Below are positions 176-25,343 of a stretch of DNA of 64,000 nt, piece by piece. Origin of the DNA: Eledone cirrhosa (Eukaryota); assembly GCA_964016885.1 (NCBI GenBank), contig OZ024740.1, positions 96,596,001-96,660,000 on the forward strand, in the 5' to 3' direction. The notes beneath the pieces were generated by a model. That model ran no database searches. It saw only the letters and a list, made by a program, of their open reading frames with translations, and was not told where the DNA came from. Position 1 is the first letter of the stretch, and every line of letters begins with the position of its first letter. Made by a program: the position numbers and the translations under genes.

Positions 176-235
176 TTTCATTCTGATGATTGAAAGCAAC
201 ATTCTTTGCTTTTAAGAAACCACTGGTAAATGGAA
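176..235 (+). ncRNA. Type I hammerhead ribozyme
   Basis: Stem I TTTCATT(176-182)/AATGGAA(229-235); core CTGATGA 183-189; stem II TTGAAAGCAA/TTGCTTTTAA; GAAA 216-219; stem III ACC-act-GGT; GUA triplet, predicted cut after 228. Confidence 0.85.
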
Positions 236-3067: not shown

Positions 3068-5810
3068 TAGAGTGTGCCATAAAAATCAAGGTCACAATAC
3101 TAACGCTCCCTGTGTATTTTCCCATTATAAATGCCCCAATTGATAACATTAAACATATTTAGTATAAAATAAATTATTTTGAATCTTGCCTATAATGATA
3201 GTGGAAAGTGAGATTATGTTGCAGGAAATCATGAAAATGTGAAACCAATTATGACTATACAATAATTGTTTATTTTATTAATCCATTATATTTACTAAAC
3301 CAGCTTTGAATATAAAGGCGTACAAGGAAGAAACAAGATCAGTTAAGTTAACTCCAGTCATATTTTTTCCAGAGTTTCTTTTTTGAAATCCGAGACCTTG
3401 CGATGATGAGCTTCGACTACTTGAAGAACACATTGCTTCTCCTCCTCATTCTTGAGGATGGCAACAAAATCAGTTATCAACTTGACTGCTCTCTACACCA
3501 GATCGTTGACTGCCTTGATATTGAGAACAACAGCACAGGCAATTTGATATGACGCTTGTGAAGACGAATTTACAGGTGACAGCTGAAGCCAAATTATCAA
3601 CGAGACCAAGGAGATCGAACAGAAACCTTGATTTATTCCCAACTAGATGAGGCAGCTTCGTGGACGACTTCAACTCGGGAAATACTGGAGCACCACGGTC
3701 GAAAGGCCCATACGTTTTCGTTTTTACAAGATGTTGGGCTATTTGTTTCTTCTCGGACACTTGGACCCGATTTGAAAAAAGTGCTAGCGGAATGGCTTCC
3801 TCCGTCAGGTACCAAAGATGCCTGCTCAGAGCCGTAGTGGCTGCCTGCGAGAGATCTATGTCAACCTTACTGTACTGTGTCAACTCCACGTAGAATTGTT
3901 AGCCAGTATCGCACCTAGAACAGCGCATTGAACATACAGATCCGGCGCAACTTTTCCATTTTAGTTTGAACGTAATTGAGTCGCTCACCAATTTCATACA
4001 TCTTTGCACAATAGATGTTTGTGGACATCCACCGAGCGTTATGATGTGCACCAGGCAGCATCCATTGAATTCCACGAGGAGGCGTGACACCAAGCATGAT
4101 CAACATCAACTCGGCACATTCTCGGTAGTCGTCCCGTGGAAGAGAACTAATTTTCCCATCGTCAGATGTCAGCAAATCTTGGAGGAACCTGATGTTCACA
4201 GAACACAAACTCTTGAGTCTCCGGTCGACAATTTTCAATGCTTTCAAGTCGGTCTTGTCCGTGAGTGACACCCAATCGTTTTTGAACTCCTTGATATCTG
4301 GGGTGCCTGGTCTGGACATTGCTCCGAATAGTTGTTGCCACACTGCACACAAGATACGCTCCATGACATGGTGCCGACAAGCAATATAAAACACATTTTT
4401 GTTGAGCATCTCTTCTAGTTTCACGCAGAAACCATTTTTCTATCCAGAATTCAAGGCAGTTGTGTCGAAGACCAATCCCACGACAGACCCATCAACATTC
4501 CAATCTTTAACAAGATCAAATGATGCTTTGGCTTGGGTGGTTCCAGTGCCATCAGGAATTATGAGAACACCGAGATGTTTACCTTTTCTGAAATCCGGAA
4601 TTCCAGCAACTAGCACACATAGCCTCTCGTGGTCACCAGGAATTATTTTGCCATCCCAATGCAAGGTAACACAGTCTGGTACAGCCACTTCCTCCTTTAT
4701 GGGTTCAGCCCCCAAAATTCTGATCTTCTTAGGTGCACGTCTGCTACTATTCTTGGAGAGAGTTTTGGCGTCTATATCAGTCCCACCCTAGAAATAATCG
4801 ATGCCATAAATGGTGTTCTCTGGCCCAGTGTCAGGTTTAAACCATCAGCAGTTAGAGAAATTGTTGGACTTTGAAATGGATTCTTTGGGAGTTCCAGCTG
4901 GATTTTTCGTTTCTTGTCTGACATGGAGCTGTCTCTGGGTGGGTTTGAGGTCTGAAATTCAGGATCCTGTTCATCTTCATTGTCATCATTGGTTCAACTT
5001 GAGTCACTCAGTTCATTACGTGGAAGTTGTGCTGCTACAGATCCTGACAAACGCTTTCTATGGTTACCTAGCTCTCGACGAGCCACAGAAACATGATCAT
5101 GCTTAAACTTTGAAGATACCTTTTTCTGGTAACCCTTGTTTTCAGCACCCAGAGATACTTTTTTTTGGCATCGCAGGGCTTCGAGAAATGTAGCGTCTTC
5201 CATTTTCTGTTCATTATTACGGAGACGGTATTTCAACATTTTATTTTCTGCATCAGCTTATGCAATGTAGAAATACGAATCGAATTCAGAAATAAATAGT
5301 GCTTCCTTTTCTTTGTTTGACTTAGAAACTTTGTTGTTTTTGTAAATTTCTGTATTCACTGTACATGTTCATAATTTTCAGTTTCACTCTGTCTTTTCGT
5401 TGAGTCGCCACACCAGCTTTTCCCCACTGACTAAATACTTCCATCACAAGCCTATCCGCAATAGCACCATTGAAGCCCACATGCTTTTCGTGTTTTATAG
5501 GACCATCTTTTAGGTAGAAGAAATATCTTAGAAAATCCCCCTTTCATGGTATTTTGTTTCGTGAAAAGGATGTAACATATTGCCCCAGGTGCCATATTTC
5601 TCGATCATCACAACGGAACGAGTAGCTGAAACTAGGCCACTGGTTTCCGCCATTATTCTGCCAATTTGCAACATTAGGCAAAACTTAAATTAGTCTGAAA
5701 TAATCAAAATTACATTATACATTTATAAAATACAAAATGGCATGAGAAAATGCATAGGGAATTAAGAAAACACCAGTTTTGTGTAAAATGTGTAATTCTG
5801 GAACACCCTA
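3068..5810 (-). mobile_element. hAT-superfamily DNA transposon (hATm-like), complete ends
   Basis: TIRs TAGAGTGTGCCA (3068) / TGGAACACCCTA (5799-5810). Perfect 8-bp TSD GGCTTTAT at 3060-3067 and 5811-5818. Confidence 0.9.
3370..5640 (-). pseudogene. Fragmented hAT-type transposase
   Basis: Motifs TLHWDGK, GLVFDTTALNSG, ACRHHVME (C2H), PGAHHNARWM and RHLWYLTEE are spread over ORFs 4440-4715, 3915-4424 and 3470-3889, with stops and frameshifts. Ends approximate. Confidence 0.85.
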
Positions 5811-7600: not shown

Positions 7601-8149
7601 AATTTCTCTGGTTCCCTGTAGCTTATTCATGGTTCAGTAACGAATTATTAAAAATCACATATGCTGGAAATCCTAAAACTCTTATGTGAGCCATGAACAT
7701 TGCTTACAACATTCCTAGCGAGAGTTATATATATGTTTATTATATATAATCATATCGTCTATTATTCCATATACACGTCTATATTAAATAACACTGACAG
7801 CACTACGGCTAATAAATCCTGAATAGAAACTATTGTTTATTCATGTGTTTACCTTGAATATGCAAACGACCCCGATGCTGGATACAACTTCTGAAAACAT
7901 AGTATATGACCTTCTCACACTATTATAAAGATGGTTTTGATATGGTCACAAACGACCCCTGATAACCACACTGTCATCCCACATCACCGACATCAACCAC
8001 GCCCTCTGCATGTTTGGATCTTTCATATTCTAATCTGGCCAATTACACCGTCTCTTCATCCTCGATCGTAGGTCCCTATATACAGTCATCGCCCATCCCG
8101 AATGATTTTGGCTCTCCAACGTTTTCTCCACCTTCGCTCATCGTCTCAA

Positions 8150-8950
8150 CCCACAACATGTACCCTATCCACCTTGCTGAGCAGCTTCTTACTTTCAACT
8201 GTTTCTCTTTCTCGGGAGAGATATACCTCGAGAAGATGGATATGTCCATGGACACCAGAATGGGCAGCAGCTACCCAAACGTATTCGTCGGTGGTGTTAA
8301 GGCACATAAACTTTTCCCAATAAACCAATAAATCAGCCCCTTCCCTGGGCTATACAGACGTTATATTGACGACTGCATCGATACCACCTAACTCACTCGA
8401 GTACATCTCAAATCTTTTCTCTCGCTCTGTTGTTTCTTCCATTCCACTCTTTGCTTCACCAACTCCATCTCCACAACTTCCCTACACTTCCTGAATATCT
8501 CTGTTTCTCTCGACCACTCCAATCTCACCAGTTTCACATTTGCCTTTTTAAACCTACCGACTCCCACAATTACCTCGGCTTCATCTCATTCCATCGCACA
8601 CACCACAAACATTCAATTTTCTACTCCCAGTTCTCCATCCCCGCCAACTTTGCAGTAGAACCCATGACATTAAGACTCAGGCACATTACACGACTAGACT
8701 TTAATCCCGGCGAGAATATTCGCTACCATGATATAGTTCGCCATCATCCCTGCCAGTGGAGCCGAACGCACATATGCCCATACACCACGCCATCACAACA
8801 CACCTACAGGTTACTTTTTAAGTTTACACTTTTAGCTAGTCACTCCAAAGCGCAATCCTCCGCCAGTCCCGTTGCCTGTCCCATCTTACCACCACCACCT
8901 TTCCTATATTTTAAACGGGCAGACAATATTAAGAAACTGCTCGGTGGTAG
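8150..8950 (+). pseudogene. Penelope-like element reverse transcriptase remnant
   Basis: FSFSGEIYL..MSMDTRMGSSYPNVFVG (decayed Q..G.AMG motif), LYRRYIDDC at ~8350-8376, FKPTDSHNYL...H..HHKHSIFYSQF, then LYFKRADNIKKLL. The order and motifs are typical of Penelope/GIY-YIG PLE ORFs. Confidence 0.85.
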
Positions 8951-9580
8951 TTCCTTCACACATTCCAATTCCTTTCGTGGATCCATATTCGTTTCCAACT
9001 CCGCTGCCATATTTGCAACCTCATTAACCACACCACCACCACACCCATCGGACCTAACGAAGGGCTTTATTCATGTTTGGGACTCCTTTTATACACAAAC
9101 CCACACTGAAATACTCACAAACACTTCCTTACCACCTACAAGAAAATACTCTACGATACAATACTTATTAATAAATGAATACGTAGAAACACACAATTGA
9201 CACGCACACACACACACATATACAAATGCACACATACAAACACAAGCACACACACATATAGCATATAGACACGTTTCACGTTTTTGCCTTTATGAATGTA
9301 ACTGACTTTCTCTGATTTTCGGTCTTTAAAATATATATTCTGGCGATGGGCGGTGTGTGTTGAAATCTATTTTCTCGACCTTTCATCTAAGCGTGAACCT
9401 AATAACATTAATCGTTTTTTATAATATATATATTTCTATATCTATATGTATGTGTCTGTGTGTTTGTGTGTTTTTGTGTGTGTGTGTGCCTGTGTGTCTT
9501 TCTGTTTCTATATGCTATTTGTATTTCGTGAATATATACAAAGGTCTCAAGACGAGTTATAATATATACAATTAATTTAC

Positions 9581-9836
9581 AATACAAAGAATACCAAGAA
9601 CTCATAATTAATTTGCCGAACATTTCAATGACTATATTTAGCCATCTCATCGGATCTTGATTAAGACGAAAATGATTGCTTCCGGATCATTTTCAACAAA
9701 TAGATTTCAACACACACCGCCCATCGAAGAAGAAAATGATCCGGTAGCAACCATTTTCGTCATAATCAAAATCCAATGATATGGCTGAATATTGCCATTG
9801 TAACGCGCGTCCTATTAATTATAAGTTATTTGTATT
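9581..9836. repeat. Diverged fold-back repeat with a decayed hammerhead in each arm
   Basis: 9581-9694 is the reverse complement of 9732-9836. The + arm reads CCAATGA-TATGGC-loop-GCCATT-GTAAC-GCGC-GTC; the - arm reads CCGATGA-GATGGC-loop-GTCATT-GAAAT. Confidence 0.7.
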
Positions 9837-10131
9837 ATATGTAGAGTAGACTGATTATATACATGCATACACACACACACACATATATATGTATATATAT
9901 ATATATAAATATATACGTGTGTGTGTGTGTGTGTGTAGTTGTGTGTATGTATGTATGTATGTATGCATGTATATATATATATATATATATAGGATCTAGC
10001 TGATGAAACGGCCGGAGCCCAGCCGTCGGGGTCCTGACTATTTTGCTATTACCCACTCTACTACCCTAAGTATCATGTACTCCAGTGTGCTATAGTCCAC
10101 CTGGCTTCTTACCGCACTTTCTTTGAATCTT

Positions 10132-10168
<37 letters not shown>

Positions 10169-10409
10169 AATGTATATATAGTGTATTTTGCAATACACTG
10201 TATGCTTAATTAAAAGCATTTCGAAGACCTTATGTATTGTTTTAGAGTAGTGACAGTCTCACTTACTTTAAATTTTCAGCAAACATTCATATATATATCG
10301 CTATTTCAGAGCGCCAATTCTAATTTTCAATTTCTGCTTGACCGGCAACTGCTCTGTATAATCAGTTCCTCATTATTACTAGAAATTATATAAGCATCAA
10401 ACATTCATG

Positions 10410-10504
10410 ATTTTCAGCAAACCGGTGGAGTACTTGGATTTGATAAGTACCAATCAGTACGAAACATAGCTCTGTCAGCTTTATCTCCCCTGTTTGCTGA
10501 AAAT
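10410..10504 (+). ncRNA. Extended type I hammerhead ribozyme, U3-A8 core (monomer 1)
   Basis: Core TTGATAA 10440-10446; stem II GTAC-caatca-GTAC; GAAA 10461-10464; stem III ACA-tagctc-TGT; GUC, cut after 10476. Distal stem I ATTTTCAGCAAAC/GTTTGCTGAAAAT and GGAG/CTCC. One mismatch in proximal stem I. Confidence 0.8.
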
Positions 10505-10730
10505 TTAAAGTAAGTGAGACTGTCACTACTCTAAAGCAATAGCATAAGGTCTTCGAAATGCCTTTAATTAAGCATACAGTGTATTGCAAAATACACTATA
10601 TATACATTCATATATATATAGCTATTTCAGCGCGACAATTCTAATTTTCAATTTCAGCTTGACCGGCAACCGCTCTGTATAATCAGTTCCTGATTATTAC
10701 TAGAAATTCTATAAGCATCAAACATTCATA

Positions 10731-10825
10731 ATTTTCAGCAAACTGGTGGAGTACTTGGCTTTGATAAGTACCAAACACTATGAAACATAGCTCTGTCAGC
10801 TTTATCTCCCCTCTTTGCTGAAAAT
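10731..10825 (+). ncRNA. Extended type I hammerhead ribozyme, U3-A8 core (monomer 2)
   Basis: GGCT-TTGATAA(10761-10767)-GTAC-caaaca-CTAT-GAAAC-atagctct-GTC-AGCT, cut after 10797. Stem I is intact; stem II is weakened. Confidence 0.7.
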
Positions 10826-10966
10826 TTAAAGTAAGTGACACTGTCACTACTCTAAAACAATAGCATAAGGTCTTCGAAATGCCTTTAATTAAGCATACAG
10901 TGTATTGCAAAATACACTATATATACATTCTTATATATATAGCTATTTCAGAGCGCCAATTATAAT

Positions 10967-11992
10967 ATTCTCGCGTGTGCTTTCATAACCTGCAAGAGTC
11001 TGCCGACAGAAGAACAAAAATCCGTTGAGAAAGCTCTGCCTTGTTCGGTCTCTATACCAAAAGCTTATTTTTATAAGCAGACAGTATTATTGATTTAGGC
11101 GTTGCAGAAACCCACTTTCGAAGCATTCCATCTTCCAATGAATTGTCCGGGTAAATATTTCAATCATATCTCATTTTGTTTGACCCATTTTAGCTTGTTC
11201 GCTTTTTTGGCTATGGTGGTTAATGGCTTCTTAACCATCCTCTCAGCGTGTATGACCTTTTTAATTTATGTTTATAGCTCTGGTATCTTCTTCAGTTCCA
11301 TCGAGCGCTTGTCAGCACAATATGGAAGTTGCGTTTCACTAATTTCTACCCGCCGAAATGCGATTCTCGCTAAATTATATTTGTATTAATCTCCCAAGTC
11401 AAGCGATTAACCAGTTAATTTTATTTGACTTTTTAGTTATTCTATTGACTGATTGATCGCTTAAGTTTATTTTAAAACGACTCGGTAGAGAGCTTAATTC
11501 GTTTTGTGCGGTTTTTGCAAATGTTTGCAATAACTACACATGCTGAATTCACTGGCCAAAATAAGGGTTTTCTCCCCTTAGATTCTCGCATGTGCTTTCA
11601 TAACCTGCAAGAGCCTGCCGACAGAAGAACAAAAATCCGTTGAGAAAGCGATGCCTTGTTCGGGCTCTATACCAAAAGCTTATTTTTATAAGCAGACAGT
11701 ATTATTGATTTAGGCGTTGCAGAAACCCACTTTCGGAGCATTCCATCTTCCAATGAAGGGTCTGGGTAAATATTTCAATCATATCTCATTTTGTTTGACC
11801 CGTTTTAGCTTGTTCGCTTTTTTGGCTATGGTGGTTAAGGGCTTCTTAACCATCGTCTCAGCGTGTATGACCTTTTTAATTTATGTTTATAGCTCTGGTA
11901 TCTTCTTCAGTTCCACCGAGCGCTTGTCAGCACAATATGGAAGTTGCGTTTCGCTAATTTCTACACGCCTAAATGCGAATCTCGCTAAATTA

Positions 11993-12000
<8 letters not shown>
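10967..12000. repeat. Direct duplication, ~420-bp copies at a 615-bp period
   Basis: 10967-11385 and 11582-12000 are nearly identical (paired ORFs MQKPTF... at 11102 and 11717). The second copy ends in (TA)n. Confidence 0.92.
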
Positions 12001-12054
<54 letters not shown>

Positions 12055-24946: not shown

Positions 24947-25074
24947 TAGAAAGTGAGATTTTTTTTACAAAATGAAAAATAACGAGTGAAAGTATAAAGA
25001 AAATGAGATGAAATCGAAAATGCAACTGGAGTCTTATTTTTTTTTTTTTTTTAAATATATAGATTTATTTGGTT

Positions 25075-25112
25075 CCTTTACCGGTTTCGCAGTTCTTCTG
25101 CTTTTCAAAAGG
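25075..25112 (-). ncRNA. Minimal type I hammerhead ribozyme, identical mirror copy
   Basis: Exact reverse complement of 25183-25220. Confidence 0.82.
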
Positions 25113-25182
25113 TGAGTTGAGACGGAGGGTCTGTGGTTTTTCTCACATCTGAGAAAAACCACAGACCCTCCATCTCAACTCA

Positions 25183-25220
25183 CCTTTTGAAAAGCAGAAG
25201 AACTGCGAAACCGGTAAAGG
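25183..25220 (+). ncRNA. Minimal type I hammerhead ribozyme, U3-A8 core
   Basis: CCTT-TTGAAAA-GCAG-aagaa-CTGC-GAAA-C-cg-GT-A-AAGG. Stems I and II pair perfectly; stem III is the palindrome ACCGGT; cut predicted after 25216. Confidence 0.82.
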
Positions 25221-25308
25221 AACCAAATAAATATATATATTAAAAAAAAAAAATAAATTAAAAAAAAAAATAAGACTCCAGTTGCATTTCGATTTCATCT
25301 CTTTTCTT

Positions 25309-25343
<35 letters not shown>

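What the first reader, a model, noticed from the sequence alone, without database searches (positions are those of the whole stretch)
10165..10965. 321-nt tandem monomers each bounded by a hammerhead ribozyme: candidate cephalopod retrozyme/circRNA unit
Seen: a 321-bp period with a type I hammerhead at the same position in each monomer (predicted cuts after 10476 and 10797). Stem I is long with an internal loop, and the stem III loop is near-palindromic (ACAtAGCTcTGT). There is also an 8-bp GCAA-tetraloop hairpin at 10578-10597 and an inverted partial monomer on the 5' side. Known: metazoan non-LTR retrozymes are tandem hammerhead repeats of a few hundred nt that are processed to circular RNAs, and Penelope pseudo-LTRs carry hammerheads in tandem-plus-inverted layouts. 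Inference: a read-through transcript would self-excise a 321-nt monomer that could circularise and be retrotransposed by a PLE RT. The two copies have complementary defects (stem I in copy 1, stem II in copy 2), so the consensus looks fully paired.
Basis: partly seen in the sequence, partly recalled or inferred. Interest (0 to 1): 0.82.

Follow-up and report, generated by a model that had tools for sequence, protein, structure and literature searches.

The report
Worn octopod retrozyme, swapped-core hammerhead
This is a worn copy of an abundant 321-base non-coding repeat, likely from an octopus-group genome, that carries a predicted self-cutting hammerhead RNA whose stems are conserved across the family; it is likely a "retrozyme" pasted in by Penelope-type jumping-gene enzymes, a known kind of element, and neither cutting nor RNA circles have been shown.

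Summary
Observation confirmed. 10283-10970 holds 2.14 head-to-tail 321-bp units (16 of 321 bases differ), each full unit with a type I hammerhead (predicted cuts after 10476, 10797), plus an inverted arm at 10157-10285 beside a (TA)n tract. The core is the U3-A8 variant; Rfam misses it. Public reads show a high-copy family with no variant at 5% or more in 12 core positions and four compensatory pairs at matched frequencies in stems II and III. The family majority restores the pairs broken here and makes stem III a perfect 12-nt palindrome, which suggests dimeric cleavage. This locus has lesions in both ribozymes that a dimer would not rescue, so it is probably a weak source of circles. Best reading: an old insertion of a non-LTR retrozyme mobilised by Penelope-like machinery. 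Cleavage, expression and circles are untested, and without a genome a coding Penelope parent cannot be excluded. Known kind; my searches found no cephalopod report, but this scan has noted many such octopus elements before, including a 316-nt U3-A8 monomer in this genome.

The parts
10137..10156 (.). (TA)n tract forming the left flank, the likely target site
   Evidence: TRF 10137-10180
10157..10285 (-). Inverted arm: reverse complement of monomer positions +15 to +144 counted from the cut site; no hammerhead core; 3-nt overlap with the start of the direct array
10283..10603 (+). Unit 1 of the direct array (starts at monomer position +128)
10604..10924 (+). Unit 2 of the direct array
10925..10970 (+). 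Partial unit 3 (46 nt), ending at +173 against a different repeat
10411..10503 (+). Hammerhead 1, type I: U3-A8 core 10440-10446, stem II 10447-10460 intact, GAAA 10461-10464, stem III 10464-10475, predicted cut after 10476; A.G mismatch at 10438/10478
   Evidence: family variants
10732..10824 (+). Hammerhead 2: core 10761-10767, predicted cut after 10797; proximal stem I intact, stem II with G.U (10768/10781) and C.C (10771/10778)
   Evidence: family variants
10477..10797 (+). Predicted 321-nt cut-to-cut monomer; folded as a circle -65.7 kcal/mol, 55% paired, z -3.5, 0 of 200 shuffles as stable
   Evidence: prediction only
10578..10597 (+). 8-bp GCAA-loop hairpin, repeated at 10899-10918 and inverted at 10180-10199; role unknown

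Best explanation
This is one worn insertion of a high-copy, non-coding 321-nt repeat with a conserved hammerhead motif, likely a non-LTR retrozyme that was likely copied into a TA tract by a borrowed Penelope-type reverse transcriptase. Shown: the tandem-plus-inverted layout, the motif, a large family with an invariant U3-A8 core and compensatory changes in stems II and III, and lesions in both ribozymes here. Inferred: intact family members cut multimeric transcripts at GUC, probably as double hammerheads paired through the palindromic stem III; monomers are likely ligated to circles as shown for coral, mussel and axolotl retrozymes; a Penelope-like protein primed both target strands, the right arm running 688 nt (2.14 turns of a circle, or along an uncut multimer) and the left arm 130 nt, the two joining at a 3-nt overlap. 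This copy has since drifted about 2.5% per unit and probably cuts poorly.
For: Family size: 511 of 17,142,217 contigs (X1), 1153 of 12,785,554 reads (X9) and 1045 of 12,647,150 reads (X10) lie on the 116-nt ribozyme stretch. No variant at 5% or more at 12 of 12 conserved core positions against 23 of 81 other positions (Fisher p 0.026). Matched compensatory frequencies in X9: 10448C/10459G 24.5/25.3%, 10450T/10457A 13.8/13.6%, 10467A/10472T 8.9/9.6%, 10468G/10471C 13.5/11.1%; X10 gives the same pattern, on both strands. Loose-end consensuses show the changed stem II and the alternative palindrome on the same reads (69 in X9, 51 in X10). Majority letters restore pairing: 10438 C in 91-99%, 10423 A in 94-99.7%, 10467 G in 80-83%; 10778 G and 10781 C in over 97% of X1 depth. 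The 10468/10471 pair closes only a 2-nt loop in a monomer, so its covariation fits a dimer; the double hammerhead is 7 kcal/mol below two monomers. No ORF of 120 aa or more overlaps the array. Family sequence covers all bins of the unit and crosses the +173/+174 junction in contigs of X1 and X4 and one read of X8. Three copies of the 46-nt overlap each carry private changes, with no closer pair, as expected if the array arose at once. Inverted 5'-truncated copies and microsatellite targets are Penelope-like features (PMC8557442, passages); a purified Penelope-like protein cuts and extends both strands of AT-rich DNA (PMC11167929). U3-A8 hammerheads occur in nature and were active in vitro (PMC3088659 section 8).
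Against: No cleavage, expression or circle data. Variant frequencies are per column, come largely from reduced-representation libraries and may reflect only two or three subfamilies, so few independent events; the 80% likeness cut-off also favours conserved reads. The uncompensated U at 10467 is itself carried by up to 10-16% of the family, 10427A (about 6%) breaks a stem I pair, and 4 contigs break the centre of the palindrome. The active folds lie 9-16 kcal/mol above the free minimum. Both direct units share C at +86 where the inverted arm has the family T, which does not fit one identical template for both arms. Only 1 of 9 predicted Xenopus retrozyme dimers cleaved in vitro (bioRxiv 2026.07.22.740005). 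No target-site duplication could be read, and no autonomous partner was identified.
Confidence: 0.65

Rival explanations
1. The unit is the pseudo-LTR or 3' end of a coding Penelope-like element, and this locus is a truncated, partly tandem insertion of it.
For: U3-A8 cores were described through the Cercyon Penelope elements of Schistosoma (PMC4209133). Tandem plus inverted layout is the Penelope norm. Retrozymes share sequence with pLTRs. X1 depth falls steadily 5'-ward from about +108 (822k to 20k), as 5' truncation from a fixed start would give, though contig depth is no copy number. No genome was held to look for an ORF.
Against: Units abut with no ORF between them; family reads cover the whole unit and cross the permuted junction; the ribozyme has a long stem I and a 4-bp stem III, unlike minimal pLTR hammerheads. 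The Penelope-type RT relic at about 7900-9200 lies outside the inverted arm and shares no significant DNA similarity with the unit (best E 0.45).
Confidence: 0.15
2. A non-coding Penelope passenger copied from linear multimeric transcripts; the hammerhead only trims ends and no circle takes part.
For: The inverted arm stops 14 nt short of the cut site, close to where a cleaved linear RNA would begin. In the anole element, uncut RNA was the dominant substrate in vitro and no reads began at the cut site (PMC11167929). The +86 difference between arms is compatible with heterogeneous linear templates.
Against: A linear template needs two uncut internal ribozymes. The stop at +15 lies inside the strong distal stem I and may be a stall. 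Circles were found in all three animal retrozymes tested (PMC7229834).
Confidence: 0.12
3. A 1.14-unit insertion was later doubled by local tandem duplication or homogenised by gene conversion, so the array says nothing about rolling-circle copying.
For: The two direct units share derived letters at +86, 10395/10716 and non-A at 10423/10744, and the inverted arm lacks the first.
Against: The units differ at 16 of 321 sites and the three 46-nt overlaps are about equally distant, so any duplication is nearly as old as the insertion; only one site separates the arms.
Confidence: 0.07
4. The hammerhead is a chance motif in a satellite.
For: No Rfam hit; not the minimum-energy fold; 12 of 5000 shuffles pass the relaxed descriptor.
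Against: Invariant core and four matched compensatory pairs across the family.
Confidence: 0.01

Closest known systems
Metazoan non-LTR retrozymes (Cervera and de la Pena 2020, PMC7229834; parts 2-4 of 6 read, supplement not readable)
   Same: Tandem non-coding units of 170-400 nt, GC under 50% (34% here), one type I hammerhead per unit, self-paired monomer, high copy number; mussel units are 350-390 bp.
   Different: U3-A8 core, a long two-part stem I and a 12-nt palindromic stem III; inverted 5' arm; no cephalopod in the parts I read; cleavage and circles shown there, untested here.
Non-LTR retrozymes as Penelope pLTR derivatives (Li, Clavereau, Pollet, bioRxiv 10.64898/2026.07.22.740005; parts 1-3 of 5 read)
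   Same: Dimer of units with a hammerhead in each; proposed Penelope dependence.
   Different: 35 genomes sampled (31 vertebrates, 3 insects, 1 anthozoan), no mollusc; homology to a pLTR could not be tested here.
U3-A8 minimal hammerheads of Schistosoma Cercyon Penelope elements (PMC4209133; parts 1-2 of 4 read) and natural U3-A8 cores (PMC3088659; passages and section 8)
   Same: Same core covariation; palindromic helix III thought to serve dimer folding.
   Different: Those in PMC4209133 are minimal motifs with long helix II, short helix I and mostly single copies; this one has canonical 4-bp stem II, extended stem I and sits in tandem units.
Penelope-like element insertions (PMC8557442, 12 of 22 passages; PMC11167929, parts 1-2 of 4)
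   Same: Partial tandem with an adjacent inverted 5'-truncated copy, AT-rich or (TA)n target, no readable duplication.
   Different: No RT or endonuclease ORF in this insertion.

Membership tests
Metazoan non-LTR retrozyme | Head-to-tail units of about 150-450 bp, GC under 50% | tested here: met
   321 bp, 2.14 copies, 34% GC
Metazoan non-LTR retrozyme | One type I hammerhead per unit | tested here: met
   Both full units; family core invariant, stems covary
Metazoan non-LTR retrozyme | No protein-coding region | tested here: met
   No ORF of 120 aa or more over the array; many stops in all six frames. Holds for this locus only.
Metazoan non-LTR retrozyme | Many dispersed genomic copies | tested here: met
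   511 contigs in X1, over 1000 reads each in X9 and X10 with many subfamily variants; no copy count possible
Metazoan non-LTR retrozyme | Self-paired monomer | tested here: met
   Circular fold z -3.5, 0 of 200 shuffles, but only 55% paired
Metazoan non-LTR retrozyme | Self-cleavage | not testable with these tools
   Needs in vitro transcription
Metazoan non-LTR retrozyme | Expressed as linear and circular monomers | not testable with these tools
   No raw RNA reads were offered
Metazoan non-LTR retrozyme | Target-site duplication, when present, longer than 4 bp | tested here: inconclusive
   Left flank (TA)n, right flank another repeat
Type I hammerhead | Core with 3-8 Watson-Crick pair, GAAA, NUH and G10.1-C11.1 | tested here: met
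   U3-A8, GAAA, GUC in both; G-C in copy 1 and the family, G.U in copy 2
Type I hammerhead | Rfam model match | tested here: not met
   No hammerhead family among 23 matches at E up to 1
Type I hammerhead | Loop 1-loop 2 tertiary contacts | not tested
   Both loops exist and vary in the family; contacts not modelled
Autonomous Penelope-like element | RT plus GIY-YIG ORF between pLTRs | tested here: not met
   None inside the insertion; other copies not testable without the genome
Autonomous Penelope-like element | Partial tandem with inverted 5'-truncated copy, microsatellite target | tested here: met

The most novel reading that the evidence does not exclude
An octopod retrozyme family whose full-size U3-A8 hammerhead is selected to cut as a dimer even though its stem III could fold alone, with loop-position covariation as the evolutionary record of that, and whose insertions are built from two separate RNA templates primed from both target strands by a Penelope-like protein. 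That would give a natural system to test how Penelope machinery copies RNA circles, a step proposed but not shown in the papers I read.
Probability: 0.2. Interest if true: 0.6.

Novelty: new member of a known kind. Interest (0 to 1): 0.36.

Why it matters
If confirmed it extends ribozyme-made RNA circles to cephalopods and adds insertion footprints (inverted arm, TA target, more-than-unit copy) to the proposed retrozyme-Penelope partnership. It also shows that U3-A8 hammerheads escape Rfam, so counts of animal retrozymes are likely too low. The locus itself is a decayed passenger with no sign of host function, and similar octopus elements recur in this scan.

Tried and rejected
No whole genome held, so no copy count, phasing or partner search. 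No RNA holder listed; this is no evidence on expression. Read-end pile-ups in RAD runs (10505, 10650, 10705, 10887/10890, 11376) first looked like element ends but all coincide with AATT sites, so I rejected them as likely library cuts. A stem-agnostic motif scan of JGI metagenomes gave 3 loci, none similar to the window and none with the stems: chance. Window self-search found no further copy of the unit. The upstream RT relic gave no Pfam hit and no hit in one word-indexed search, but phmmer found 44 relatives, 6 of 8 checked matching RVT_1 at E under 0.01; rejected as part of this insertion. Functional complementation of the two copies in a dimer rejected. Literature: 'hammerhead ribozyme'+'octopus' 5 papers, 4 listed; 'cephalopod'+'Penelope'+'ribozyme' 4 papers, 3 listed, none about a cephalopod retrozyme by title or abstract start; one search was uninformative (4,922 papers, none of 10 listed had 'retrozyme'); PMC7761336 has no 'cephalopod'. 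The supplement of PMC7229834 was too large to read and the preprint's supplements are closed; either may list cephalopods.

Full report
Observation. The direct array runs 10283-10970: two full 321-bp units and 46 nt of a third, with 16 of 321 differences between full units. Directly upstream, 10157-10285 is the reverse complement of monomer positions +15 to +144 counted from the predicted cut; it starts in a (TA)n tract and overlaps the array start (+128) by 3 nt. Each full unit carries a type I hammerhead: long stem I with an internal loop, core UUGAUAA, 4-bp stem II, GAAA, stem III, GUC. Rfam found no hammerhead and the motif is not the minimum-energy fold. A relaxed descriptor hits 12 of 5000 shuffled monomers and 0.33 times per shuffled window, so the local match is unlikely by chance but not decisive.

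Family evidence. No genome was held, so I laid public runs on the stretch. On the 116-nt ribozyme region lay 511 of 17.1 million contigs of X1, 1153 of 12.8 million reads of X9, 1045 of 12.6 million reads of X10 and 7 of 762,587 contigs of X5. The variant table was complete at the 5% level. None of 12 core positions varies, against 23 of 81 others (p 0.026), so U3-A8 is the family state. Four base pairs change on both sides at matched frequency in both read sets and on both strands: two in stem II, two in stem III. Loose ends show one subfamily with both stems changed on the same reads, stem II GCAU/AUGC and palindrome ACAAGGCCUUGU. The majority has G at 10467, giving the perfect palindrome ACAGAGCUCUGU. 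Most other stem variants are wobble-compatible. Against this: the window's U at 10467 is uncompensated and shared by up to 10-16% of the family, 10427A breaks a pair in about 6%, 4 contigs break the palindrome centre, the counts are per column, and they may stand for only two or three subfamilies. The majority letters restore the pairs broken in each copy, which confirms that those lesions are decay.

How it likely works. Established for coral, mussel and axolotl: tandem type I hammerhead repeats are transcribed, cut to monomers and ligated to circles, and Penelope-like elements are the proposed mobilisers (PMC7229834). A 2026 preprint links such repeats to Penelope pLTRs but saw cleavage in only 1 of 9 dimers. 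U3-A8 cores are natural and were active in vitro and occur in Schistosoma Penelope elements. Inferred here: the family cleaves at GUC, probably as a double hammerhead, since the 10468/10471 pair cannot close a monomer loop yet covaries, and the dimer fold is 7 kcal/mol better than two monomers. The insertion looks Penelope-made: inverted 5'-truncated arm and TA target, with a protein known to cut and extend both strands. The right arm is 2.14 units long, which a circle explains simply; an uncut linear multimer would too, and uncut RNA was the main substrate for the anole element. One site (+86) separates the inverted arm from both direct units: two templates, a reversion or later conversion could each explain it. 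I began with single-template twin priming and now hold it less firmly.

This locus. Copy 1 has an A.G next to the cut-site pair; copy 2 has lost two of four Watson-Crick stem II pairs, including G10.1-C11.1. In the dimer each lesion stays with its own enzyme half, and releasing a monomer needs both cuts. I put circle production from this locus at about 15%, circles from the family at about 60% (judgement, not computed).

Neighbours. A decayed RT at about 7900-9200 has relatives with RVT_1 matches; its motifs look Penelope-type from recall. It lies outside the insertion and shows no DNA similarity to the unit. 10967-12001 is a separate repeat of period 615 that is tandem at other loci as well. 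The host is likely an octopod; I have no direct species label.

Novelty. The kind is known and each feature has a precedent. My searches found no cephalopod retrozyme in print, with unread supplements as a gap. Earlier notes of this scan describe many octopus hammerhead repeats, one a 316-nt U3-A8 monomer in the same genome; they are unchecked and are not used as support. Verdict: real, well supported at the structural level, a new member of a known kind; interest 0.36.

Noticed in passing
run X5 on window 10411-10508: One 126-nt contig holds 398 of about 420 depth and carries a variant set (10426G, 10427A, 10435G, 10460T, deletion at 10480) that is about 1% of depth in X1. The library kind is not on record, so this is unexplained and no evidence of expression.
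   Followed up: no
10967-12001: A second repeat, period 615, 1.7 copies, 18 of 420 differences, ending at (TA)n; joints 11580 to 10969 show it tandem elsewhere. It has a UUGAGAA half-core at 11025 and no canonical hammerhead by my descriptor.
   Followed up: partly
9991-10135: Short element between TA tracts with CUGAUGA at 9999, a 5-bp stem and a further stem enclosing it, but no GAAA in canonical position; possibly a broken or re-ordered hammerhead of the kind in earlier notes.
   Followed up: partly
10657-10692: A conserved block shared with a diverged sister family: 1499 X8 reads and contigs of organisms B and C continue with a different sequence. Candidate recognition motif.
   Followed up: no
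7900-9200 (+): Heavily decayed reverse transcriptase, Penelope-type by recalled motifs, with a possible remnant of a hammerhead half-core near 9053.
   Followed up: partly
183-228 (+): Only hit of the strict hammerhead descriptor, inside the 1-257 foldback; stems rely on G.U and A-U pairs, likely chance.
   Followed up: no
9562-9864; 24993-25312; 1-257: Self-inverted elements of 250-330 bp, MITE-like.
   Followed up: no
14791-55885: Several nested, decayed LINE copies in direct repeat, up to 3.4 kb at 78-96% identity, and a 190-bp dispersed repeat with at least 6 copies.
   Followed up: no
3470-4791 (-): Broken ORFs that look like a DNA transposase remnant by recall; no Pfam hit for 3915-4436.
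   Followed up: partly
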